Assembly: GCA_963843685.1 (NCBI GenBank)
Contig: CAWJLO010000008.1
Coordinates: forward strand, 202,027-266,026
Length of the DNA: 64,000 bases
Source: an uncultured Chloroflexia bacterium
GTDB taxonomy: Bacteria; Chloroflexota; Dehalococcoidia; DSTF01; JACRBR01
Reading direction: 5' to 3'
In this document: positions 3 to 9,814 of the stretch, piece by piece
Layout of the letters: each line of letters begins with the position of its first letter
Position numbering within the stretch: the first letter of the stretch is position 1
Notes under the pieces: model-generated
Seen by the model: only the letters and a program-made list of their open reading frames with translations
Database searches by the model: none
Told to the model about the DNA's origin: nothing
Position numbers and translations under genes: made by a program

Positions 3-542
3 ATGAAACGCCGCCTGGAGCTCGCCCGCACACTGCTTCCCGGTCCCGAGCTGATCCTGCTCGACGAACCCACCCTCGCGCTCGACCCGGACTCTCGCCA
101 GCGCTTGTGGCAACACCTGCTGGAGGCCAATTCAGATGGCTGCACGCTGCTGATCGCGACAAACGACGTCCATGAGGCCGAACGTTTCTGCGGCACCGTC
201 GCGCTGCTCAGCGACGGGCAGCTCGTCGCTCAGGGCAGCCCGCCTGAGCTCAAGCGCGACCTCCGGCGCGACGCCGTCCGCATCGAATGGAATCACGATC
301 CGGTAGCAGAAATCGCCATCATGCAGACGTGGAGCGACGTCGGCCATGTCCGCGTCGCGGGCCGCACTACGCACGTGACGGTCGATGCAGCCAGCCCGTT
401 CCTGACACGTATCTTTCAGCAGTCGGGGGATCTCATCCGCGGCGTCCAGATCGAAGAGTCGACGCTCGAGGATGTCTATTTTCAACTCGTCGGGAAGGGC
501 ATCGCGCCCCAGCCCGAGGCAGAGGCGGAGGGAACGCCGTGA
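3..542 (+). CDS. ABC transporter ATP-binding protein, partial (5' end outside window).
   Basis: Translation carries the ABC signature/Walker B region (LELARTLL...ILLDEPTLALD) and a C-terminal extension. Stop TGA at 540-542 overlaps the next start (GTGA). Confidence 0.85.
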   Translation: MKRRLELARTLLPGPELILLDEPTLALDPDSRQRLWQHLLEANSDGCTLLIATNDVHEAERFCGTVALLSDGQLVAQGSPPELKRDLRRDAVRIEWNHDPVAEIAIMQTWSDVGHVRVAGRTTHVTVDAASPFLTRIFQQSGDLIRGVQIEESTLEDVYFQLVGKGIAPQPEAEAEGTP

Positions 543-1318
543 GTCAGATCGACGCCGTCCTCGCCTTGCTCGCCCGCGATCTGCGAGCGTTCCTCCGTTC
601 GCGGTCGCAGCTCTACTCATCGGTAGTGTTTCCGCTGATGCTCCTCGCGATCTTGGGCACGGGTGTTTCAGACGGCCTCGATCCGAAGAAGATCAAGGAT
701 TACGTGACGTTCCTGACACCTGGCATGATCGTCATGACCGCGCTCTTCTCATCGACCTTCTCCAGCGCGTCCTATTACCAGGACCGGGACTCCGGCATCT
801 TGAAGGTGTTACTGGCATCGCCGCACTCGACGCGCGTCGTGCTCCTTGGCAAGACGCTCAGCTCCGTCGTCATCGGCGCGGCGCAGGCGCTACTCGTGCT
901 AGGCGTGGCGTCACTCATCCCGGCAATCCACTTCAATTGGCAATACGGCGTCCTGCCCAGCCTCGCCCTCGCCGTCTTCTCAATTGCGGTCATCAATTTC
1001 TTCCTATCGGGCCTGGGCCAACTCCTCGCGTCGAAGATCGGCTCGATGCAGGGGTTCCACCTCGTCATGAACCTCGTGTTGTTCCCGGCGCTCTTCTTCT
1101 CGGGCGCATTCTTCCCTCTCACGAACCTCCCCGAGTGGCTCAAGATAATGGGTCGTGCGAATCCCCTGTCGTACGGGGTCGACATGATGCACCTTGCCCT
1201 CTACGCCGACGGTTCGGGCGGCTACTTCGGGCTGCCTATCGACTTCGCCGTACTTACGCTGCTCGGTGCCGCCGCGTTCTTCGCGGGCACTGGCCGGAGC
1301 GTGAGTCCCGACAGATGA
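539..1318 (+). CDS. ABC-2 family transporter permease.
   Basis: GTG start overlaps the upstream stop (GTGA). Six predicted TM helices with ABC-2 permease-like sequence (VVFPLMLLAILGTG..., PLSYGVDMM). Confidence 0.8.
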   Translation: MSQIDAVLALLARDLRAFLRSRSQLYSSVVFPLMLLAILGTGVSDGLDPKKIKDYVTFLTPGMIVMTALFSSTFSSASYYQDRDSGILKVLLASPHSTRVVLLGKTLSSVVIGAAQALLVLGVASLIPAIHFNWQYGVLPSLALAVFSIAVINFFLSGLGQLLASKIGSMQGFHLVMNLVLFPALFFSGAFFPLTNLPEWLKIMGRANPLSYGVDMMHLALYADGSGGYFGLPIDFAVLTLLGAAAFFAGTGRSVSPDR

Positions 1319-2289
1319 GATTAGGTCTCGCGCTGGTGGCGCTCTCGCTCATCGCGTCGACGCTCGCGTCGTGCGGAAGCGCCTCGTCGGGCCCGTCGGC
1401 TGTCTCGTTCCCAACGGTTGTGACCCTCGGCGACTGCGAAGTGTGTCCAGCCATAAACAACACGTCGCTCGCAGTCGGAGACAACCGCGTCTCCTTCACG
1501 CTCACGGACAAGGACGACAACCTCGTGCTCGACGCCCATGTGCATGTTCGCTTCTTCGACCTCAACGGCGCGACCCCCGTCCTTCAGTCCGAGTCTGACG
1601 CCAACTTCGTGCCCGTGACGCTGGCATACGTTGACTCACAGCTTGGTAACAAGGAGACCACGAGTGGGGAGTCGGGAGTCTACGTCACACACGCGACGTT
1701 CGACCGCCCGGGCGATTGGGGCGTGCAGGTGATGGTCACGCGAGGCGGTACGTCACTCAAACCAATCCCGTATCGATTCACTGTCCTCGTGCGCTCCGTC
1801 GAGCCCGAGGTCGGCGATCCGGCGCCGGCCAGCGTGCAACAAACGCTTGCTACCGCGGCAAGCATCGAAGATATCGACTCGTCCTACCCGCCCCGCACCG
1901 CGATGCACACGATCACGGTCGCCGATGCGCTGAAAACGGGCAAGCCGTTGGTCATCGCGTTTGCAACTCCCGCTTACTGTCAGACGCGCACCTGCGCGCC
2001 AGTCATGGACACTGTCATGGATCCGCTCTATTCGAAGTACAAAGATGAGGCAATCTTTATCCACATCGAGCCGTACGAACTCGGACCCCTCCGCCAATCA
2101 AATGTGCAGCAGCCAGTGAGGGCGACACAGGAGTGGCAGCTCAGGAGCGAGCCGTGGGTCTTCGTGGTCGGGCGCGACGGACGGATCGCCGGGAAGTTCG
2201 AGGGAATCATGGGCTTCGGTGAGGTAGAGGACGTGCTCCAACAGGCCATCGCTTCGCCAGTGCCGGCGCCGTCCGCCACGCCCCGGTGA
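1315..2289 (+). CDS. Lipoprotein with an N-terminal YtkA/CtaK(FixH)-like domain and a C-terminal thioredoxin-fold (Sco/TlpA-like) domain; putative CuA assembly factor.
   Basis: ATG overlaps the permease stop (ATGA). Lipobox LASCGS. Motifs DAHVHVRFFDLNG (YtkA-like) and AFATPAYCQTRTCAPV (thioredoxin-fold Cys pair). It lies next to the cta operon. Confidence 0.65.
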   Translation: MRLGLALVALSLIASTLASCGSASSGPSAVSFPTVVTLGDCEVCPAINNTSLAVGDNRVSFTLTDKDDNLVLDAHVHVRFFDLNGATPVLQSESDANFVPVTLAYVDSQLGNKETTSGESGVYVTHATFDRPGDWGVQVMVTRGGTSLKPIPYRFTVLVRSVEPEVGDPAPASVQQTLATAASIEDIDSSYPPRTAMHTITVADALKTGKPLVIAFATPAYCQTRTCAPVMDTVMDPLYSKYKDEAIFIHIEPYELGPLRQSNVQQPVRATQEWQLRSEPWVFVVGRDGRIAGKFEGIMGFGEVEDVLQQAIASPVPAPSATPR

Positions 2290-2413: not shown

Positions 2414-3415
2414 GTGAGCATGGAATACGTACAAACGGTCATGGCCCGAGTGGCCGCGACGAAATTCGATAAGTCGCTCGAGCCGGGTGGCTTGATGTCG
2501 GAGCTCGAAGGGCACCGCGATTTCGTTGCGGGAACGCGCGGGTCGCGGGGGATGAGCGTCACACGCTCGGCGAACCCCGAAGGCGATGTCTTGGTCGTGG
2601 TTGAGACACGCTGGGCAAACAACAACGCTTTGGCCGATTACTCCGCGAACGAGCCGAACGCGGAGTCCATCTTCCGGCGGCACGAAGACCTCCTGACCTC
2701 CGATGGCCTTCAAGTACACCGCATGCAGTCCGAGGAGACCACATCAGGCGTATCACCGACGAAGGTATACGACCGCCTTGTGCTACCGTTGGCGATTCCG
2801 TTGGGAGTGCTTACATTCGCGCTTCTCGTCATCTACGGCCTCTCCCGCATCTACCTGACGCTTCCCGGTTCGTGGGCCACCCCACTCGCCGCCGGGATCG
2901 CGCTTGGCGTGCTGGGCGTGTCTTGGTACTTCGCGTCTCACCCCGCAGTGCCGCGCTGGCAGATCATGGGGGTGTTTGTCGTCGTGCTGGGCGCGCTCGC
3001 GATCGCAGGTACGGCAGCGGCGGTGTATGACAATCAGCATGCCGAGGTGAAGTCAGTCGAATCTCCCACTCCTGCGTCAGGTACACCCACGGGGAACCAG
3101 GTCATCGACATGGCCGATTTCCAGTTCGAGGACTCCACCGGAGCGAAGAACCCCACCATCACCGTGAGCAGCGGCCAGACGACCATCGATCTCACGAACA
3201 CGGGCGCGGCGAGTCACAACATGCACATATCCAGCGCGAGCGGAGACTACGACTCAAGCATCTGCAAGGTGGGCGGTACTGACCCCTGCTCAGATCCAGC
3301 CCTCATCACCGGTGGGCAGACTGGGAGCATCACGTTGAACCTCGCGCCGGGCACGTACAAGTACCGGTGTGACTTCCACCCGACACAGATGTTCGGAACG
3401 CTCATCGTCAAGTAG
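2414..3415 (+). CDS. Membrane-anchored cupredoxin (type-1 blue copper, auracyanin/plastocyanin-like) fused to an N-terminal ABM-like domain.
   Basis: N-terminal ~110 aa is ABM-like (VLVVVETRWANNNALADY). Three TM helices follow. The C-terminal cupredoxin carries His...Cys-x2-His-x4-Met ligands (HNMHI ... YRCDFHPTQMFG). Confidence 0.75.
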   Translation: MSMEYVQTVMARVAATKFDKSLEPGGLMSELEGHRDFVAGTRGSRGMSVTRSANPEGDVLVVVETRWANNNALADYSANEPNAESIFRRHEDLLTSDGLQVHRMQSEETTSGVSPTKVYDRLVLPLAIPLGVLTFALLVIYGLSRIYLTLPGSWATPLAAGIALGVLGVSWYFASHPAVPRWQIMGVFVVVLGALAIAGTAAAVYDNQHAEVKSVESPTPASGTPTGNQVIDMADFQFEDSTGAKNPTITVSSGQTTIDLTNTGAASHNMHISSASGDYDSSICKVGGTDPCSDPALITGGQTGSITLNLAPGTYKYRCDFHPTQMFGTLIVK

Positions 3416-3440
3416 CCGAGTCGACTCTCAGGTCGAAGGA

Positions 3441-3478
3441 CCGCTCAAGATTGAGCGGTCCTTCTGCCTTTTGCGAAG
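3441..3478 (+). terminator. Intrinsic terminator hairpin after the cupredoxin gene.
   Basis: Stem GAAGGACCGCTCA / TGAGCGGTCCTTC with loop AGAT, followed by TGCCTTTT. Confidence 0.6.
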
Positions 3479-3637
3479 CTTGGTGATGGGAGCTGCGTTC
3501 CCTCCGGCCTTGAGTTGGGTGCATTCGATGGACTCGGCTTCGTCTACTTGGCGCCGCATTGCCGGCCAAATGCATCGGATGTCCGCCCAATAGGCAAGGC
3601 CGGATCGAACACGAGCCCGGAGGAGGGTGACGGAGGG

Positions 3638-4051
3638 TCAGACGATGTTACCGCCGAGCGTCGTGAGCACGACGGCGAAGATCGAGAATGCGAGTGCAAA
3701 ACCCGCGACGAACGCCGTGCTGAACAGTCGGCTATCGAACTTCAGGTGCATGAAGAACAACACGACGAGTGCGAACTTTGCGGCGGAGAGCAGGATCAGT
3801 GCGGTGATGAACGGTTTGCGAGGCATGTCTACGTAGTAGATGGCGACTTCGATACAGGTGATGACAGCCAGCACGAGGCCTACCTGGACGTACTCCATCG
3901 GCCCGGGATGACCACGGTGCACTGGCGCCGTGCCTGCGGGCTGCGATGCGGGCACCAGCAACGACATCGCGGCTATCCCGCCGCCGATCAGCCCCAGGAC
4001 CAGCAGGGGAAGCCCAACCAGCAGCGCCGGGTCGTTGAAGAAGTCGTGCAT
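3638..4051 (-). CDS. ctaF: Cytochrome c oxidase subunit IV (prokaryotic CtaF family) with a ~50-aa N-terminal single-TM extension.
   Basis: C-terminal 86 aa (MEYVQVGLVLAV...FFMHLKFD...) match the Bacillus-type CtaF family with 3 TM. The AGGAG SD sits 8 nt upstream of the ATG at 4051. Confidence 0.75.
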   Translation of the reverse strand: MHDFFNDPALLVGLPLLVLGLIGGGIAAMSLLVPASQPAGTAPVHRGHPGPMEYVQVGLVLAVITCIEVAIYYVDMPRKPFITALILLSAAKFALVVLFFMHLKFDSRLFSTAFVAGFALAFSIFAVVLTTLGGNIV

Positions 4052-4060
4052 CCTGATCTC

Positions 4061-4174
4061 CTAGTACGGTCTCAGCCAGTAGGCGAACATCGCACCGATT
4101 GCTACAACGACGCCCGCAGCGCCGACCACGAGTAGGGGTATCCCCACAAGCAAAGATGGGTCGTCAAAGAACAC
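4061..4174 (-). CDS. Small 37-aa single-TM protein between ctaE and ctaF, paralogous to the ctaF N-terminal extension.
   Basis: GTG start is preceded by GGAGAG immediately after the ctaE stop. Its stop TAG is embedded in the ctaF SD. Sequence VFFDDPSLLVGIPLLVVGAAGVVVAIGAMFAYWLRPY resembles MHDFFNDPALLVGLPLLVLGLIGGGIAAM of ctaF. It is below the ORF-track size cutoff. Confidence 0.5.
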   Translation of the reverse strand: MFFDDPSLLVGIPLLVVGAAGVVVAIGAMFAYWLRPY

Positions 4175-4186
4175 CCAGACGCTCTC

Positions 4187-4777
4187 CTACCCGACAAGGT
4201 ACACAAGCGTGAAGATTACAATCCAGACAACGTCGACGAAGTGCCAGTACAGGCCGGCCAGCTCAACATTGAGCGAGCTCTCCTCCGTGATATGGCCTCG
4301 TAGCGACCCGGCCCATAACGACATGAGGATGAGCACACCGACGGTGACATGGGCGCCGTGGAAGCCGGTGAGGACAAAGAACGTGGTCCCGAACATGTTC
4401 TGATGGAGCGTCAAACCCTCTCGGTAAAACTCCGTGAACTCAAAGGCCTGACCAGACAAGAAGACGATGCCAAGGAATGAGGTCGCCAAGAGCCACACTC
4501 GCATCTGTCGCAAGTCGCCGCGCTGGATGGCCGCGAGCGCCAGTACCATGCTGAGACTGCTCATCAGCAGGACGAAGGTGCTCACCGAGGTAAACGGGAT
4601 GTCGTAGAGGTCCTTCGGATAGGGCCCCACGACGCTCCGATCGCGGTAAAGCAGGTACGCGGAGATGAACGAGCCGAAGAACAGGCACTCCGAGCCGAGG
4701 AAGAGCCACATGAGCAGCTTCCGGTTGTCAAGGCCGGTGCTGGTTTCCAGATGCCCTGCCGTCGACGCGTGCGCCAA
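4187..4777 (-). CDS. ctaE: Cytochrome c oxidase subunit III.
   Basis: 196 aa with 5 TM and COX3-like sequence (FFVLTGFHGAHVTVG, LYWHFVDVVWIVIF). Confidence 0.9.
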   Translation of the reverse strand: MAHASTAGHLETSTGLDNRKLLMWLFLGSECLFFGSFISAYLLYRDRSVVGPYPKDLYDIPFTSVSTFVLLMSSLSMVLALAAIQRGDLRQMRVWLLATSFLGIVFLSGQAFEFTEFYREGLTLHQNMFGTTFFVLTGFHGAHVTVGVLILMSLWAGSLRGHITEESSLNVELAGLYWHFVDVVWIVIFTLVYLVG

Positions 4778-4798
4778 GACGATTCTCCTCCCCGAACG

Positions 4799-6721
4799 CT
4801 ACTCCGCGGTGGCCGGCTCGAGCGCCCAGCCGTACAGGCCGACGATCGTCACAACGGCGCCCACCGCGACGATGCCGACATCGTAAATGAGCCCGAATGC
4901 GATGAGCGGGATTCCTACCGCCGACAGCAACGGGAAGTACGACGGCGACGGCAGGTGGATGCCGTGCCCGCCTCCTTCCCCGTGGCCGTCATCACTGTGG
5001 TCCGACGCACCGGCTGGAACAGGGACCGGCACGCCCGTCGGATCCTCTGCGTACTTCCGGTGCCAGAAATCATCAAGCGCATGCACTTGCGGAATCTGCG
5101 CGAAGTTGTAAGGCGGCGGCGGAGATGGGATCGTCCACTCAAGCGTGCGCGCATCCCACGGGTCGTCCCCGGCGATCTCGCCGCTGCGGAGGCTTCGGAT
5201 CACGTTCACGATGAAGACCAGGATCGAGAAAGCGATCAAGAACGCGCCGACTGTCGCCATCATGTTCCAGAAACCCCAGCCGTACCCAGCGTCGTAGGTC
5301 TGGATCCGGCGCGGCATGCCCATGATGCCGAGCACCATCATCGGCTCAAACGTGAGGTTGAAGCCAATCAACATCGTCCAGAAGTGCAACTTCCCCAGGG
5401 GCTCGTTCAGCATGCGGCCGGTGAACTTGGGGAACCAATAGTAGGCGCCAGCGAACAGCCCAAAGATGGCGCCGCCAAACAGGACCTGATGGAAGTGCGC
5501 GACGATGTAGTACGTGTCTTGCTGCTGATAGTCGGACGGCACGATTGAGTGCGTTACGCCGGTGAGGCCGCCAATCGTGAACATGGCGATGAAGCCGACG
5601 GCGAAGTACAGCGGCGTCTTGAAGCTGATCGATCCGCCGTAGAGCGTCGCGAGCCAGTTGAAGATCTTCACGCCCGTCGGCACGGCAATGAGAATGGTGG
5701 AGACGCCGAATGCGGAGTTCGCCACCGACCCGAGGCCCGTCGTGTACATGTGATGCGCCCAGACTCCCCAACTCATGAAGCCGATCGCGACTCCTGAGAA
5801 CACGACGAATGGGTAGCCAAACAGCGGTTTTCGCGCGAACGTCGGTAGTACCTCGGACACGATCCCCATCGCAGGCAAGATGAGGATGTACACCTCCGGG
5901 TGACCAAACAACCAGAACATGTGCTGCCATAGCAGGGGCGTGCCACCCGCGGCGGCGTTGAAGAAGTTCGCGCCGAACAGCCGGTCAAATGACAGCTCGA
6001 ACAGGGCGACCGCGATAACGGGCATCGCGAAAATGATCAGGAACGACGTGACGAGCGTCATCCAGATGAAGACCGGCATCCGGAAGAGGGTCATGCCTGG
6101 CGCCCGCATGTTCAGGATTGTGACGATGAAATTGAAGCCGCCGGCGAGGGACGCGACGCCAAGGATCTGGAGTCCCAGCATCCAGTAATCGATGCCGTTG
6201 TCAGGGCTGAACCGCGTCAACGTCAACGGCGCGTAACCAAACCAGCCACCTTCCGGGGCACCAAGGTCGCCTTTGAGAATGTTCCCCCCGGTAAAGAAGC
6301 TCACGTTGAGGAAGATCCCGCCAAAGAGGAAGAGCCAGTAGCTGAAAGCATTCAGGCGCGGAAACGCCACATCCCGCGCACCGATCATGAGCGGCACAAG
6401 CAGGTTGAAGAACGCCGCGCTCAGCGGCATGACAACCAGGAAGACCATCGTGGTCCCGTGCATGGTAAAGATGCGGTTGTATCGATCGGGGTTGAGGAAT
6501 TGCTCGTTTGGCGTGGCGAGTTGAATGCGGATGAGCAGCGCCTCGAGCCCACCTACCAGGAAGAAGAAGAAGGCCGTCACACCGTACATGATGCCGATGC
6601 GCTTGTGGTCGACGGTCGCGATCCAGCTCCAGATGCCCTTATAGGTCGCAGCGTCGTCGCGGATCTCGCGCATCGCCTGGCCCATGGTCACGCGTCGCGG
6701 TGTGTAGGTTGCGCCTGCCAT
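4799..6721 (-). CDS. ctaD: Cytochrome c oxidase subunit I with a C-terminal two-TM extension.
   Basis: Heme-copper oxidase subunit I sequence (WFFGHPEVYILILP, HHMYTTG, His ligands). The start is uncertain. ATG at 6721 has GGAG upstream and lies 2 nt after the ctaC stop. Alternative starts are 6685 or 6796. Confidence 0.85.
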   Translation of the reverse strand: MAGATYTPRRVTMGQAMREIRDDAATYKGIWSWIATVDHKRIGIMYGVTAFFFFLVGGLEALLIRIQLATPNEQFLNPDRYNRIFTMHGTTMVFLVVMPLSAAFFNLLVPLMIGARDVAFPRLNAFSYWLFLFGGIFLNVSFFTGGNILKGDLGAPEGGWFGYAPLTLTRFSPDNGIDYWMLGLQILGVASLAGGFNFIVTILNMRAPGMTLFRMPVFIWMTLVTSFLIIFAMPVIAVALFELSFDRLFGANFFNAAAGGTPLLWQHMFWLFGHPEVYILILPAMGIVSEVLPTFARKPLFGYPFVVFSGVAIGFMSWGVWAHHMYTTGLGSVANSAFGVSTILIAVPTGVKIFNWLATLYGGSISFKTPLYFAVGFIAMFTIGGLTGVTHSIVPSDYQQQDTYYIVAHFHQVLFGGAIFGLFAGAYYWFPKFTGRMLNEPLGKLHFWTMLIGFNLTFEPMMVLGIMGMPRRIQTYDAGYGWGFWNMMATVGAFLIAFSILVFIVNVIRSLRSGEIAGDDPWDARTLEWTIPSPPPPYNFAQIPQVHALDDFWHRKYAEDPTGVPVPVPAGASDHSDDGHGEGGGHGIHLPSPSYFPLLSAVGIPLIAFGLIYDVGIVAVGAVVTIVGLYGWALEPATAE

Positions 6722-6723
6722 AG

Positions 6724-7521
6724 CTACTGCACTCCGTGTAGCGCCAGTGTTGCGGGTGTACCGCCGCGCTGCGCGCTCGCTTGCTGCTGGAGCCAAGCGT
6801 CATAGTCTTGCTGTGACTCGACCACGAATGTGAAGCGCATGGTCGCATGGTCAAGTCCGCAGAATTCAGCGCACTGGCCGTGGAACGTACCCGTCTGCGT
6901 TGCCTTCAGCCACATGTGGTTGTCGCGTCCCGGAATAACGTCCGTCTTTCCTCCCAACTTGGGCATCCAGAAGCTGTGGATGACGTCAGCCGACTGGAGC
7001 TTGAATTCGATGTCACGATTGACGGGAATGTGGGCGTAGACTCCATCCGGGTCGTTCGCCAGGATCTGAATCGGCGACCCGCCGTTCGGATTTGGGTAAT
7101 CAAACTCCCAGAACCACTGGTGCCCGACGACGTTGACCGTCATGGCGTCCTTCGGCGTCTTGCCCAGATGCACGATACCCGAGATGGTCGGCGGAACGAA
7201 GAACGCGAGGAGCAGAACCGGCGCGATGGTCCAGCCGATCTCCAGCGCGTTGTTTCCGTGCGTCTGCGGCGGCAGACCGGGGTCGCCCTTCTTGCGCCGG
7301 AAGCGGATGAGGATGAACAAGAGCATCCCCTCTACCAGCACGAGGATGAGGAGCGCCGGCCACATCACAAAGAGGAAGAGATTCTTCTGGTCCTTGGCCA
7401 CAGTGCCGGCAGGGGCGAACGTGTTTTGCGGGCTCGAGAACACGCCGCAGCTCGAAAGCATTACGGCCAAGCCGATGAGAGAGAGAACGGCCAGAAGGCG
7501 CGGCAGACGGCGATCGCGCAC
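6724..7521 (-). CDS. ctaC: Cytochrome c oxidase subunit II (CuA centre only, no cytochrome c domain), lipoprotein.
   Basis: GTG at 7521 has a perfect GGAGG 9 nt upstream. Lipobox LSSCG. CuA motif HSFWMPKLGGK...HGQCAEFCGLDHATM. No CxxCH. Confidence 0.85.
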   Translation of the reverse strand: MRDRRLPRLLAVLSLIGLAVMLSSCGVFSSPQNTFAPAGTVAKDQKNLFLFVMWPALLILVLVEGMLLFILIRFRRKKGDPGLPPQTHGNNALEIGWTIAPVLLLAFFVPPTISGIVHLGKTPKDAMTVNVVGHQWFWEFDYPNPNGGSPIQILANDPDGVYAHIPVNRDIEFKLQSADVIHSFWMPKLGGKTDVIPGRDNHMWLKATQTGTFHGQCAEFCGLDHATMRFTFVVESQQDYDAWLQQQASAQRGGTPATLALHGVQ

Positions 7522-7740
7522 GCTAGAGAACCTCCGGCGCGCACACCACGGGTCGACAACTGGCGTCGGCCACGAGAGCTCGGCTGGCGCGGTGCCCGGG
7601 ACGCAGCATGCGGACTCCCTCGGTTCAAGTCGCCGACGGCGAATTATTCCCGCCGCATCGCGTACGGTCAAGGGTTCGTGACTTTTCCCACAATTGACGC
7701 GACCAACGAACGGCGCGTGCGGCCGAATCTGAGGCAGGCG

Positions 7741-8649
7741 TTATCTGAGGATGAGTTGGTCGAGCGCAACGGCGATGAAGAGGAAGGCGAGGTAGTAGAT
7801 CGAGACCCGGAACACACCCATCGCCGCTCCCGGTTCTTCGCTCGACTGCAGCATCCAAGCCTCCCGCACGAATGCCGCGCCAAGCACGACCGCGCTCGCC
7901 CCGTAGATCCAGCCCACGGTACCCGTGACCAGCAGTGAAAGCGACATGGGCACGAGCAATGCGGCGTAAACCAAGATCTGCCGCTTCGTTGAAGCCATAC
8001 TCGCAACAACCGGGAGCATGGGGACGCCCGCGCGGGCGTAATCGTCGCGATACTTGATGGAAAGCGACCAGAAATGAGGCGGCGTCCAGACAAAGATCAC
8101 GCCAAAGAGGATCACGGCCGGCAGGCCGACGCTCCCCGTCACCGCGGCCCAGGCGACGAGCGGGGGCACAGCACCGGCTGCGCCACCGATGACGATGTTC
8201 TGGGCCGTCGTACGCTTCAGCCACATTGTGTAGACGAAGACGTAGAACAGCGTAGCGCTCAGTGCCAGCAAGGCCGCGAGCACGTTCGACGAAAGCGCCA
8301 GCAGCGCGAATGCGGCAACCTCGAGCCCGACGGCGAAGATCAGCGCGCTCGCCGGCTCCAGACGACCGAGCGGCAACGGCCTTCCTTGCGTACGATGCAT
8401 GATCTGGTCGATGTCGCGATCGATATAGCAGTTGATCGCGTTCGCCCCACCGGCGGCGAGAGAGCCGCCGATCACAGTAGCTGCCATCAGCCAGAGCGAC
8501 GGCACCCCCTGCGCGGCGAGGACCATCGTCGGGATCGTGGTGATGAGCAGGAGCGATATGATGCGCGGTTTTGTGAGCGCGAGGTAGGCCGACGCAAGCT
8601 CACGCCAGGAGAGCGCGGGGCGACGAACGGCCGAACTTATCGCACCCAT
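7741..8649 (-). CDS. ctaB: Protoheme IX farnesyltransferase (heme O synthase).
   Basis: UbiA-family sequence (NCYIDRDIDQIMHRTQGRPLP...). The ATG at 8649 gives a 302-aa protein; the upstream in-frame extension is a GC-frame artefact. Confidence 0.85.
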   Translation of the reverse strand: MGAISSAVRRPALSWRELASAYLALTKPRIISLLLITTIPTMVLAAQGVPSLWLMAATVIGGSLAAGGANAINCYIDRDIDQIMHRTQGRPLPLGRLEPASALIFAVGLEVAAFALLALSSNVLAALLALSATLFYVFVYTMWLKRTTAQNIVIGGAAGAVPPLVAWAAVTGSVGLPAVILFGVIFVWTPPHFWSLSIKYRDDYARAGVPMLPVVASMASTKRQILVYAALLVPMSLSLLVTGTVGWIYGASAVVLGAAFVREAWMLQSSEEPGAAMGVFRVSIYYLAFLFIAVALDQLILR

Positions 8650-9587
8650 TGGGCCATCCGTTCCTGACCGGCGCGTTCGTCGGCGCCGGATTCGACATCG
8701 CGGCCCGGGAGGTAGAACGCCAACGCACTCGTGAGCACCGTTGCGCACCACAGAAGCGCCGCGAGCGAAAGATGCGCAACGACGACCCCCGCCGCGAGAT
8801 CGGTCCAGATGTTCGCGGCACCCAGGAGGGCTTGCGCGATAAACGCCATCCCGGCGAAGACGGTGAGCGCGATCAGCGCCGGTTGCCGGCGGCGCTCCTC
8901 GAAGGCCACGTAGATCAGCGCCAGCAGCAGTATCCCGAGCAACCCGGCGAGCAAGCGGTGGAGCATGTGCAGCCCGACGGCGCTGCCTCCGCCTGGCAGC
9001 ACGCTCCCGTTGCAAAGGGGCCAGCCGTGGCACGCAAGCGATGCGTCCGTGCCGCTGATGTAGGACCCGAGCACGAGAGTCGCAAAGGCGGCACCCGCGC
9101 TCAACATCGCGAGGCGGCCGAACGCGGTCTCCGACGTCAGCGGCAGGGCCCGCACCCCCCGTTCGCGCATCAACGAGATCGTCAATGTCACGATCATCAC
9201 TCCCATGAACGCCATAGCAGTCGCCAAGTGCGTAGCGACGATGCCGGCGGGAAGCTCCTTCTTGACTGTCACGCCGCCGAGGATGATCTGCGCAAGCAGG
9301 AGGACGCCGGCGGCAAATGCAAGCCAGAAAACGAGCGGATGCTTACGCTCGGTTTTGAACGTAAAGAAGGTCACGCCGAGGAAGAGGAGTCCAACCACGA
9401 ACGCGGCGGTCCTGTGGGAGAATTCGATGAGCGTGTGCTCGTCCGCGGAGGGGACGAACTTGCCGTGGCAGGTTGGCCAGTCGGGGCATCCCAAACCAGA
9501 ACCAGTGGCGCGTACCGTGCCGCCGACCACCACCAGGACGAACGTGGCCACGATGGTGATCAGGAGCAGCCGCTGGAAGGAGGTCAT
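8637..9587 (-). CDS. ctaA: Heme A synthase (COX15/CtaA).
   Basis: Eight TM with two Cys pairs (GCPDWPTCHG, CHGWPLCNG) and conserved His. It overlaps the ctaB start by 13 nt. The start at M59 (9587) was chosen because the upstream sequence is not protein-like. Confidence 0.8.
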   Translation of the reverse strand: MTSFQRLLLITIVATFVLVVVGGTVRATGSGLGCPDWPTCHGKFVPSADEHTLIEFSHRTAAFVVGLLFLGVTFFTFKTERKHPLVFWLAFAAGVLLLAQIILGGVTVKKELPAGIVATHLATAMAFMGVMIVTLTISLMRERGVRALPLTSETAFGRLAMLSAGAAFATLVLGSYISGTDASLACHGWPLCNGSVLPGGGSAVGLHMLHRLLAGLLGILLLALIYVAFEERRRQPALIALTVFAGMAFIAQALLGAANIWTDLAAGVVVAHLSLAALLWCATVLTSALAFYLPGRDVESGADERAGQERMAQWVR

Positions 9588-9814
9588 AGCCGAGCGCGCG
9601 CAAGAGACCGGCGCGGTTTCACTCCTGACTGAAGGTGCGATACGGACATGAGGCCGTTCGTGACCGCCATCACGAGTAACACGAGGCACGTGCGGGGTCA
9701 AGCGAGATGGGAGTTCATGAAGGATCACCCGCCGCGTTGACACTGAACCGAACGCCGCCAAGAATAACTCGGCCTGACGGAGAGCGCTGAACGGGGAAGG
9801 AAGGTTGACACAAC

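What the first reader, a model, noticed from the sequence alone, without database searches (positions are those of the whole stretch)
4061..4174. Unannotated 37-aa transmembrane ORF wedged between ctaE and ctaF, paralogous to the ctaF N-terminus.
Immediately after the ctaE stop (TAG) comes GGAGAG, then a GTG ORF encoding VFFDDPSLLVGIPLLVVGAAGVVVAIGAMFAYWLRPY. Its TAG stop lies inside the AGGAG SD of ctaF. The ctaF ORF itself begins with MHDFFNDPALLVGLPLLVLGLIGGGIAAM, a clear paralogous segment, before the canonical subunit-IV region starts at MEYVQ. This pattern looks like a tandem duplication of a small single-TM oxidase subunit, with one copy fused to CtaF.
Basis: seen in the sequence. Interest (0 to 1): 0.55.

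Follow-up and report, generated by a model that had tools for sequence, protein, structure and literature searches.

The report
Conserved 37-residue membrane peptide gene in oxidase operon
A real, conserved but uncalled 37-codon gene sits between two cytochrome oxidase genes of a soil Chloroflexota bacterium; it encodes a single membrane helix copied from the start of the next gene and is most likely an extra small subunit of the respiratory oxidase.

Summary
On the minus strand, a GTG-started 37-codon ORF (4174..4061) lies between ctaE (4777..4187) and ctaF (4051..3638). Each has an AGGAG Shine-Dalgarno overlapping the preceding TAG stop.

The peptide is a clear paralogue of the first ~30 residues of CtaF, an extra N-terminal helix I call TM0 (profile-profile probability 99.4%, E 2.5e-21).

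It is a gene, not a relic. The same ORF, nearly always 37 aa and ending ..YW[ILV][KR]P[SY], occurs in the same slot in more than 20 related loci and about 40 protein clusters. Orthologue dN/dS is 0.06-0.5 with saturated dS. No Pfam, NCBIfam, PDB or Rfam match exists. It is not called in a near-identical NCBI assembly.

TM0-bearing CtaF is more widespread, and the loci with the free peptide form a clade nested inside it. The peptide therefore most likely arose by tandem duplication of the SD plus 5' end of ctaF.

The outer halves of the two paralogous helices co-vary within genomes.

Best reading: a lineage-specific single-pass accessory subunit of the aa3-type oxidase. It resembles ba3 subunit IIa or CcoM in kind but is unrelated in sequence. 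Moderate interest.

The parts
4061..4174 (-). Micro-ORF 'S': GTG start, 37 codons plus TAG. Predicted single-pass membrane peptide: aromatic/acidic N-cap FFDDP, hydrophobic core at residues ~7-31, C-terminal YWLRPY.
   Evidence: sequence. (Kyte-Doolittle >1.6 for one stretch; GC1/2/3 0.66/0.39/0.68, coding-like). (orthologues). (dN/dS 0.06-0.5).
4184..4188 (-). AGGAG Shine-Dalgarno for S, overlapping the ctaE stop codon TAG (4189..4187), 9 nt before the GTG.
   Evidence: An SD-like purine run lies upstream of S in all six loci printed.
4058..4062 (-). AGGAG Shine-Dalgarno for ctaF, overlapping the S stop codon TAG (4063..4061), 6 nt before the ctaF ATG. This is the duplicated junction.
   Evidence: The TAGGAG..ATG junction after S is conserved in window, L001-L004, L081, L086 and L088.
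3947..4051 (-). ctaF codons 1-35: the N-terminal extra helix TM0 (MHDFFNDPALLVGLPLLVLGLIGGGIAAMSLLVPA), paralogue of S.
   Evidence: score 78 against shuffles 24 +/- 5. (hhalign 99.4%). (AlphaFold helix 8-30). (conserved in ~30 of 40 homologues).
3902..3946 (-). ctaF codons 36-50: Pro/Gly-rich linker ending in the invariant HPGP motif (H48, P49).
   Evidence: coil at residues 31-50, lowest pLDDT. (H48 invariant, P49 >=90%).
3638..3901 (-). ctaF codons 51-137 plus stop: canonical three-helix prokaryotic oxidase subunit IV (COX4_pro).
   Evidence: PF03626, 44.9 bits, residues 57-124. (helices 51-73, 78-104, 108-136).
4187..4777 (-). ctaE, five-helix subunit III (CyoC/QoxC-like length). In the window it is in the same reading frame as S and ctaF.
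   Evidence: PF00510; TIGR02842/NF050119 below cut-offs. (in-frame stop).
4799..7671 (-). ctaC (7671..6724) and ctaD (6796..4799), upstream genes of the same operon. CtaD carries a two-helix C-terminal tail.
   Evidence: (the only promoter-like site, 7671..7643, lies upstream of ctaC; no terminator-like site between ctaE and the 3' end of ctaF; one minus-strand terminator-like match lies inside ctaD at 5089..5074, and the two matches found are below the shuffle expectation of 3.7).

Best explanation
S is a translated 37-residue single-pass membrane protein. It is encoded inside, and translationally coupled within, the ctaC-ctaD-ctaE-S-ctaF operon of an aa3-type (A-family) heme-copper oxidase in a Dehalococcoidia-like Chloroflexota lineage.

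Origin (inferred). An ancestor's CtaF already carried an extra N-terminal helix (TM0) ahead of the three-helix COX4_pro core. A tandem duplication of about 120-126 nt copied the ctaE stop/Shine-Dalgarno (TAGGAG) plus the first ~37 codons of ctaF. The copied TAG ends the new ORF. The result is a free-standing copy of TM0, which then acquired its own cytoplasmic tail (..YW[ILV][KR]P[SY]).

Function (inferred, not shown). S is an accessory subunit of the oxidase. It inserts N-terminus-out and C-terminus-in, like TM0. It uses the same conserved small-residue face in the outer-leaflet half (L8, G11, L15, G18, G21) to pack either against TM0 itself or against an equivalent groove on CtaD/CtaE. This adds one more peripheral helix, for stability, lipid binding or a supercomplex contact.

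Shown: the ORF is coding, conserved and under purifying selection; it is paralogous to TM0; its operon position is fixed; its outer half co-varies with TM0 within genomes.

Inferred: translation, topology, physical membership of the complex, and the packing partner.
For: Coding and conserved:
- Orthologous ORFs occupy the same slot in L001-L004 and L006, L081-L084, and 12 of the L085-L104 metagenome loci.
- A profile search found 43 clusters, nearly all 37 aa, with invariant P6, L9, G11, P13 and W33.
- Window versus L001 shows 20 synonymous against 9 non-synonymous differences. dN/dS across all pairs is 0.06-0.53 with dS about 0.5-2.3, saturated in most pairs.
- An S-specific tail and a fixed length are conserved.

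Signals: AGGAG overlaps the preceding stop at both junctions, with 6-9 nt spacing. There is no promoter-like or terminator-like site between ctaE and the 3' end of ctaF.

Not an RNA element: no Rfam hit, and fold z = -0.25.

Paralogy.

Direction of evolution: the S-bearing loci are monophyletic (78%), nested in a TM0-only clade (82%). Where S is absent, ctaE and ctaF abut, with a gap of about 0-50 nt. The two repeat units are collinear, TAG-GAG-xxx-xxx-ATG-TTC-TTT-GAG.., about 62% identical over 123-126 nt.

Coupled evolution: for residues 1-17, within-genome S-TM0 pN is 0.12 against 0.20 cross-genome (0 of 20,000 permutations reach the observed identity). Synonymous divergence is almost as high within genomes as between them (pS 0.55 against 0.61). 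Residues 18-29 cluster by type, not by genome.

Precedent: unannotated single-helix subunits inside oxidase operons are known, such as ba3 subunit IIa and CcoM (PMC3128077; PMC4742706).
Against: - There is no direct evidence of translation or of presence in the enzyme. All carriers are uncultured MAGs.
- GC3 of S (0.68) is lower than that of its neighbours (0.80-0.82), though this rests on only 38 codons.
- Topology rests on the textbook N-in topology of CyoD-type subunit IV. The positive-inside rule is weak for some S variants (tails ..YWINPTPSQ..SWANPE).
- The within-genome co-variation could reflect old or episodic gene conversion rather than physical interaction. pS is somewhat lower within genomes (367 of 20,000 permutations). 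It is low in L094 (0.23), L001 (0.36) and L088 (0.38).
- The permutation test ignores phylogenetic non-independence.
- The tree is neighbour-joining on two proteins, with only moderate support.
- L006 was left out because of frameshifts.
Confidence: 0.6

Rival explanations
1. A free-standing single-helix subunit gene was ancestral between ctaE and ctaF. It duplicated in tandem, and the downstream copy fused to ctaF by loss of its stop codon.
For: S and ctaF are in the same frame, separated only by TAG plus 3 codons, in window, L001-L004, L086 and L088. A single stop-loss would therefore fuse them. TM0-bearing loci are not monophyletic in the CtaD+CtaE tree (0% bootstrap), so TM0 has a complex history.
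Against: No locus among more than 100 has S with a TM0-less CtaF, or S alone. TM0-only loci are more widespread and bracket the S clade. A fusion across a 4-residue spacer would have to create the ~20-residue linker de novo. The S-specific YWxKP tail is not found in the CtaF linker.
Confidence: 0.15
2. S is translated, but its role is regulatory or assembly-related rather than structural. Examples: an upstream ORF kept to couple ribosomes from ctaE to ctaF, a chaperone, or a competitor for the docking site of TM0 during assembly.
For: The stop/SD overlap at both junctions is the classic arrangement for translational coupling. As a paralogue of TM0, S could occupy the TM0 site.
Against: Pure coupling does not need a conserved peptide. 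Here the amino-acid sequence, the length and a private C-terminal tail are all under purifying selection. TM0-only relatives manage with ctaE and ctaF directly adjacent. Nothing here distinguishes an assembly factor from a stoichiometric subunit.
Confidence: 0.2
3. S is a non-functional leftover of a duplication, or a chance ORF in GC-rich DNA. Any similarity is maintained only by gene conversion from ctaF.
For: S is not called by the annotation of a near-identical assembly. There is some signal of lower within-genome synonymous divergence. GC-rich genomes produce many spurious ORFs.
Against: The ORF is retained, with the same length and stop position, across lineages whose CtaF is only 52-75% identical. 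dS is saturated but dN is low. The C-terminal third, which is unlike CtaF, is the most S-specific and is conserved (W33 invariant; Y32 and P36 >=90%), so conversion from ctaF cannot maintain it. The other frames over this stretch lack a coding-like GC pattern.
Confidence: 0.03
4. S and CtaF are made as one protein by TAG readthrough, giving a CtaF with two N-terminal helices.
For: The same frame and a 4-codon spacer in most loci.
Against: In L006 and L090-type loci the S ORF ends ..KPSRGAR with TGA overlapping the ctaF ATG (ATGA), so the two ORFs are in different frames. A 4-residue spacer between two helices that should both run out-to-in is topologically inconsistent. An SD plus ATG for ctaF is conserved.
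Confidence: 0.02

Closest known systems
Subunit IIa (CbaD/CoxIIa) of B-type ba3 oxidases (Thermus thermophilus, Aquifex aeolicus)
   Same: A 34-60 residue single-helix peptide encoded inside the oxidase operon, directly next to a core subunit gene. It is often not annotated, and it stands in for a helix that is part of a larger subunit in other oxidases (PMC3128077).
   Different: There is no sequence similarity (no Pfam hit for S at E <= 1). IIa sits upstream of subunit II in B-family enzymes, whereas S sits between subunits III and IV of an A-family enzyme. IIa shows no similarity to the helices it replaces, while S is a demonstrable paralogue of its neighbour's helix. IIa has been shown by mass spectrometry and in structures; S has not.
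CcoM of Pseudomonas stutzeri cbb3 oxidase; CydX/CydS-type peptides of bd oxidases; subunit IV of Paracoccus/Rhodobacter aa3
   Same: Small single-pass accessory subunits of terminal oxidases that are dispensable for core chemistry and affect stability or assembly (PMC4742706; the others from general knowledge).
   Different: These are unrelated families in different oxidase classes. None is known to have arisen by partial duplication of an adjacent subunit gene. CcoM is encoded outside the cco operon (my recollection, not checked here).
Prokaryotic oxidase subunit IV, COX4_pro (CyoD/QoxD/CtaF; PF03626)
   Same: The downstream gene ctaF is a member (44.9 bits). S is homologous to a clade-specific N-terminal add-on of that protein.
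   Different: S does not match the COX4_pro model at all. The family's three-helix core is absent from S. The TM0 add-on lies outside the Pfam domain and is limited to some Chloroflexota.
Actinobacterial oxidase subunit IV (Cyt_c_ox_IV, PF12270) / the two-helix C-terminal tail of CtaD
   Same: Shares a G-x-P-x(4)-G motif and an aromatic-W-x-x-P end with S. Some small Chloroflexota proteins combine a TM0-like helix with a weak PF12270-like hairpin.
   Different: Profile-profile probability is only 13-22%. The alignment needs an 8-residue gap that would merge two antiparallel helices into one. Homology is rejected on present evidence.

Membership tests
COX4_pro (PF03626), for the downstream gene ctaF | Score at or above the Pfam gathering threshold over the three-helix core | tested here: met
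   44.9 bits against a cut-off of 28.9, residues 57-124 matching model positions 3-70 of 72. AlphaFold gives three helices at 51-136.
COX4_pro (PF03626), for the micro-ORF S | Any match to the model | tested here: not met
   0 Pfam families at E <= 1 and 0 NCBIfam families. S is homologous only to the extension outside the domain.
caa3-type oxidase subunit IV (TIGR02229), for ctaF | Score at or above the NCBIfam cut-off | tested here: not met
   33.5 bits against a cut-off of 37.25. It is the closest NCBIfam model but falls below threshold.
Known small oxidase peptides with Pfam models (ba3 IIa, FixQ/CcoQ, CydX/YbgT, COX4_pro_2, Cyt_c_ox_IV) | Sequence match of S to any such model | tested here: not met
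   The Pfam scan of S at E <= 1 returned nothing. A PDB sequence search with the S profile gave only E >= 1 noise.
Accessory single-pass subunit of a heme-copper oxidase (functional class, not a homology family) | Gene inside the oxidase operon with conserved position | tested here: met
   Always COX3 - S - COX4_pro, in more than 20 loci.
Accessory single-pass subunit of a heme-copper oxidase (functional class) | One hydrophobic helix, with the peptide under purifying selection | tested here: met
   Hydropathy. dN/dS 0.06-0.53. Invariant and near-invariant positions.
Accessory single-pass subunit of a heme-copper oxidase (functional class) | Physically present in the purified or structurally resolved enzyme | not testable with these tools
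   Needs mass spectrometry or cryo-EM of the enzyme. No cultured carrier was found.
Tandem partial gene duplicate of ctaF 5' end | Collinear repeat units including the non-coding junction, with the derived state nested in the phylogeny | tested here: met
   Units of 123-126 nt, about 62% identical, both starting TAGGAG..ATG/GTG. The S clade is nested in the TM0-only clade. Support is moderate (78-82%).

The most novel reading that the evidence does not exclude
S and the TM0 helix of CtaF form a co-evolving, pseudo-symmetric pair of parallel helices at the edge of the oxidase. Their outer-leaflet halves are kept matched by selection rather than by gene conversion. This would be a documented case of a new micro-protein subunit born by partial duplication of a neighbouring subunit's helix and then locked to its parent by protein-level co-evolution. 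It might create a lineage-specific docking site, for example for a supercomplex partner or for the adjacent membrane cupredoxin.
Probability: 0.25. Interest if true: 0.55.

Novelty: new variant of a known kind. Interest (0 to 1): 0.4.

Why it matters
Small single-helix subunits of respiratory oxidases are routinely missed by gene callers, yet they turn up in nearly every high-resolution structure. This one defines an undescribed 37-residue family with about 40 clusters in public data, all 'hypothetical' or uncalled. It is tied to the aa3 oxidase of aerobic Dehalococcoidia-like Chloroflexota, a group with no solved oxidase structure.

Its origin can be read directly from the sequence: a tandem copy of the SD plus the first helix of the next gene, with the copied stop codon closing the new ORF. 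That makes it a clean example of micro-protein gene birth and of helix 'fission' from a larger subunit.

Practically, it should be added to annotations and to the search databases used for metaproteomics and for modelling these enzymes. It does not change the understanding of oxidase chemistry.

Tried and rejected
1. Homology of S/TM0 to the CtaD C-terminal two-helix tail (shared VGIPL / GxPxxxxG and ..YGWALEP against ..AYWLRP). The pairwise score of 48 needs an 8-residue gap, and hhalign probability is only 13-22%. Topology would also clash. Rejected.
2. Solved-structure relatives. Profile searches of the PDB with the CtaF alignment (no hit at E <= 1) and with the S alignment (noise only) were uninformative. 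Foldseek of the AlphaFold CtaF model against the PDB gave no hit with E <= 0.001.
3. RNA element or attenuator in the ctaE-ctaF gap. No Rfam match at E <= 1, and the MFE is no better than shuffles (z = -0.25). Rejected.
4. Readthrough fusion of S and CtaF. Rejected on frame in L006/L090-type loci and on topology.
5. Recent gene conversion as the sole cause of S/TM0 similarity. In the window, pS between the two copies is 0.80 over codons 1-17, so there has been no recent conversion here. Older or episodic conversion cannot be excluded.
6. Literature. Searches found no description of this peptide: Chloroflexi + oxidase + subunit IV + cryo-EM (0 papers), small single-TM oxidase subunit + duplication, Dehalococcoidia + oxidase, and the peptide string FFEDPALL (0 papers).
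It was repeated with the 41-aa stop-to-stop translation as the first row.
8. A look-up of the window's exact CtaF (P0171) for its source contig found no record. The 99%-identical P0001 was used instead.

Full report
**1. What is in the sequence**

All the genes concerned are on the minus strand. The order is:
- ctaA (9761..8637, COX15-CtaA)
- ctaB (9033..7741 as the longest ORF, UbiA)
- ctaC (7671..6724, COX2_TM + COX2)
- ctaD (6796..4799, COX1)
- ctaE (4777..4187, COX3)
- the 37-codon ORF, here called S (4174..4061)
- ctaF (4051..3638, COX4_pro at residues 57-124)

S starts with GTG, the only possible start codon after the in-frame ctaE stop. It encodes (M/V)FFDDPSLLVGIPLLVVGAAGVVVAIGAMFAYWLRPY.

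The ctaE stop and the S stop are both TAG, and both are the first bases of TAGGAG. An AGGAG Shine-Dalgarno therefore overlaps each stop, 9 nt before the S GTG and 6 nt before the ctaF ATG. In the window, ctaE, S and ctaF share one reading frame.

The only promoter-like site in 3300..8000 lies upstream of ctaC. The + strand terminator-like hairpin (3435..3464) lies beyond the ctaF 3' end. A second, minus-strand match lies inside ctaD (5089..5074), and two matches is below the shuffle expectation. S therefore sits inside the operon.

**2. The similarity is well above chance**

- S aligns with CtaF residues 4-27 at a BLOSUM62 score of 78. Shuffles give 23.8 +/- 4.8, with a maximum of 50 in 2000.
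- An HMM of the CtaF N-terminal segment was run over all 18,027 six-frame ORFs of the window and 80 related loci. It hit only CtaF N-termini and S-type ORFs (27-49 bits). The next hit scored 10 bits.
- Profile-profile comparison of the two families gives probability 99.4%, E 2.5e-21.
- At the DNA level the two copies in the window are 69% identical over the first 17 codons, with pS 0.80. The duplication is therefore old, not an assembly artefact.

**3. S is a gene**

Conservation in relatives:
- A scan of one genome per GTDB species with the CtaF alignment returned 80 loci.
- S-type ORFs lie between ctaE and ctaF in L001, L002, L003, L004 and L006. Their CtaF is 52-75% identical to the window's.
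- Each ends 3-4 codons before the ctaF start, or overlaps it as ATGA in L006.
- Twelve further pairs came from metagenome contigs and from contigs that carry database peptides.
- The context is always COX3 - S - COX4_pro.

Breadth of the family:
- A profile search of 5.8 billion proteins found 43 clusters. Nearly all are exactly 37 aa. None has a Pfam domain, and every name given is 'hypothetical protein'.
- The consensus is MFFEDPALLVGxPMLVLGxxGxxxALGAxVSYWIKPS. P6, L9, G11, P13 and W33 are invariant. F2, F3, E4, L8, L15, G18, G21, Y32 and P36 are at least 90% conserved.
- An exhaustive HMMER pass over 1.84 billion cluster representatives found only about ten S-like clusters, plus TM0-bearing CtaF proteins. 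The family is therefore small and lineage-restricted.

Selection:
- Nei-Gojobori counts between orthologues give dN/dS of 0.06-0.53, with dS mostly saturated. Window versus L001 shows 20 synonymous against 9 non-synonymous differences on 28 and 80 sites respectively.
- The C-terminal tail has no counterpart in CtaF yet is among the best conserved parts, so conversion from ctaF cannot be what preserves the ORF.

Other checks:
- GC by codon position is coding-like: 0.66/0.39/0.68.
- There is no Rfam match and no unusual RNA structure.

**4. 'Unannotated'**

The window's exact CtaF is in the public protein collection (P0171; NCBI/ENA, 391.6 kb contig). The window's S, with either V or M as first residue, is not.

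In the near-identical assembly GCA_964418935.1 (L108), S is present with one substitution (M29L). The called genes there go straight from COX3 to COX4_pro.

**5. CtaF and its extension**

Of 40 aligned homologues, about 30 carry the N-terminal FFExPALLxGxPLLxxGxxG helix. The rest start with a short polar segment such as MTLAEYRKKRGEP... All 40 share an invariant His48, in the HPGP motif just before the first core helix.

AlphaFold (pLDDT 77) gives the following for the window's CtaF:
- a helix at residues 8-30 (TM0)
- a coil at residues 31-50
- three helices at 51-73, 78-104 and 108-136

**6. Which came first**

Loci were classified as follows:
- S + TM0: window, L001-L004, L006
- TM0 only: L005, L007, L008, L011, L015, L016, L018, L022
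- neither: the remaining Chloroflexota and all Actinomycetota loci

Where S is absent, ctaE and ctaF are adjacent.

In a neighbour-joining tree of CtaD+CtaE:
- the S-bearing loci form a clade (78% of 200 bootstraps)
- that clade lies inside a clade with L005, L007 and L008 (82%)
- the other TM0-only loci form a separate clade (95%)

No locus has S without TM0.

The repeat units are collinear, including the non-coding junction: TAG-GAG-nnn-nnn-ATG-TTC-TTT-GAG-GAY-CCN... appears twice. Units are 123-126 nt long and about 62% identical.

The most economical history is that TM0-CtaF came first. A tandem duplication then spanned the ctaE stop/SD through about codon 37 of ctaF, and the copied TAG closed the new ORF.

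**7. Concerted evolution of the outer half**

This analysis used 18 S/CtaF pairs.

| Segment | Comparison | pN | pS |
|---|---|---|---|
| Codons 1-17 | within-genome S vs TM0 | 0.12 | 0.55 |
| Codons 1-17 | cross-genome S-TM0, S-S and F-F | 0.20 | 0.58-0.61 |
| Codons 18-29 | within-genome S vs TM0 | 0.46 | 0.52 |
| Codons 18-29 | S orthologues (S-S) | 0.39 | 0.60 |

- For codons 1-17, none of 20,000 permutations of the pairing reached the observed amino-acid identity.
- For the pS difference, 367 of 20,000 permutations were at or below the observed value.
- For codons 18-29, the copies group by type: S orthologues are more alike than S and TM0 of one genome.
- Examples of within-genome matching: L004 has GFWENPELLFG in both copies, and L091, L093 and L094 have ..GxPF.. 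in both.

The result is a mosaic. The N-terminal, presumably outer-leaflet, half of the two helices tracks within genomes, and the inner half has diverged. Two explanations remain open:
- selection keeps the two outer halves matched, because they share a partner or pair with each other
- short-tract gene conversion occurred in clade ancestors and was followed by synonymous saturation

A few loci with low pS (L094 0.23, L001 0.36, L088 0.38) suggest that conversion does occur sometimes. I cannot separate the two with these data. The permutation test also ignores shared ancestry.

**8. Likely mechanism**

Established knowledge: CyoD/QoxD-type subunit IV has three helices with the N-terminus in the cytoplasm. 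This is my recollection of the E. coli bo3 topology and structures, not tested here.

TM0 must therefore run from outside to inside. By homology, and given the acidic N-cap (FFED/FFDD) and usually basic tail (K/R35), so does S.

On a helical wheel, the conserved L8, G11, L15, G18 and G21 fall within an arc of about 140 degrees. This small-residue face is typical of tight helix packing, and it is kept in both paralogues (the wheel is my inference).

I therefore propose that S is an additional peripheral helix of the oxidase. It would be docked through that face either to TM0 or to an equivalent groove on CtaD/CtaE, anchored at the two interfaces by F2/F3 and Y32/W33.

Translation is probably coupled ctaE -> S -> ctaF through the stop/SD overlaps.

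None of these functional steps is shown. Translation, membership of the complex and the partner are all inferred.

**9. Comparison with known systems**

The closest in kind is subunit IIa of ba3 oxidases:
- it is a 34-60 residue helix encoded in the operon and often unannotated
- it was proven only by intact-mass spectrometry and structures
- it replaces a helix that belongs to subunit II in A-type enzymes (PMC3128077)

CcoM of cbb3 (PMC4742706), CydX-type peptides, and the single-helix subunit IV of Paracoccus/Rhodobacter aa3 are further analogues.

S matches none of them in sequence, so it is not a member of any described family. What sets it apart is its traceable origin as a copy of its neighbour's first helix, and its coupled evolution with that helix.

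A tempting resemblance to the CtaD C-terminal tail / PF12270 hairpin was tested and rejected.

**10. Verdict**

- Novelty: a new variant of a known kind, namely a small accessory oxidase subunit, belonging to a new sequence family with an unusual, legible origin.
- Interest is moderate (0.4). It is worth annotating and worth a look by people who solve Chloroflexota respiratory complexes, but it does not overturn anything.

Noticed in passing
window 2414..3415 (+): A 333-aa membrane-anchored cupredoxin (PF00127 at residues 246-333, hydrophobic segments around 120-225). It is convergent on the cta operon and syntenic next to ctaF in most Chloroflexota loci. It is plausibly the electron donor to this CuA oxidase, whose CtaC has no cytochrome c domain.
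   Followed up: partly
window 3..2289 (+): An ABC ATPase fragment, an ABC-2 permease (287..1318) and a lipoprotein-like ORF with a YtkA-like domain (PF13115; 1291..2289, with a C-terminal CxxxC-containing region). The same neighbours recur in L081 and L108. YtkA/CtaK is a CuA copper chaperone in Bacillus (from memory), so this may be an oxidase-maturation module.
   Followed up: partly
window 4799..4990 (-), CtaD residues ~605-665: CtaD has a two-helix C-terminal tail (HLPSPSYFP...GLYGWALEPATAE), conserved across all loci, with a sub-threshold match to actinobacterial subunit IV (PF12270, 22.5 bits against a cut-off of 26.9). It shares a GxPxxxxG motif with S/TM0, but homology was not supported.
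   Followed up: yes
L105 126..482; L106 215..559; L107 356..700 (proteins P0189, P0193): Small (114-118 aa) Chloroflexota proteins that combine a TM0-like N-terminal helix (FFENPALLLGIPL.., MENPAYLLGIPF..) with a hairpin weakly matching PF12270 and the CtaD tail. In L105 the gene follows what looks like the end of ctaB. The TM0 module may be a portable helix attached to different oxidase small-subunit scaffolds.
   Followed up: partly
L010 ~85..549 and L013 ~4818..5285: These CtaF homologues carry a different hydrophobic N-terminal extension (MTAYPVIALTLATVAAAMAMSRWTPWPAVLF...), unrelated to TM0. N-terminal helix add-ons to subunit IV seem to have arisen more than once.
   Followed up: no
window 3902..3910 (-), CtaF H48-P49-G50: His48 is invariant and Pro49 at least 90% conserved in 40/40 and 36+/40 CtaF homologues, including those without TM0. 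They sit just before the first core helix. The role is unknown, and the motif lies outside the Pfam COX4_pro match.
   Followed up: no
window 7741..9033 (-) and 8637..9761 (-): The longest ORF for ctaB overlaps ctaA by about 400 nt. The UbiA domain starts only at residue 162, so the real ctaB start is probably well downstream of 9033.
   Followed up: no
window 3435..3464 (+): A 13-bp GC-rich hairpin followed by a T-rich tail, in the gap between the 3' ends of the cupredoxin gene and ctaF. It is reported on the + strand only; it may also serve the convergent cta operon.
   Followed up: no
L006 2271..4278; L081 and L082 COX1 region: Several long-read MAG loci show a fragmented COX1 (frameshifts). 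In L082 this also splits CtaF, so that its TM0 was called as a 34-aa 'protein' (P0162). Some database micro-ORFs of this type are assembly artefacts rather than S genes.
   Followed up: partly
PDB chain 9wqv_C residues 15-40: The N-terminal anchor of a photosynthetic reaction-centre cytochrome c subunit (ENPTDLMGPGILVGTVGGAVAVAAII) is the best, though non-significant (E = 1), PDB match to the S profile. Probably chance.
   Followed up: no
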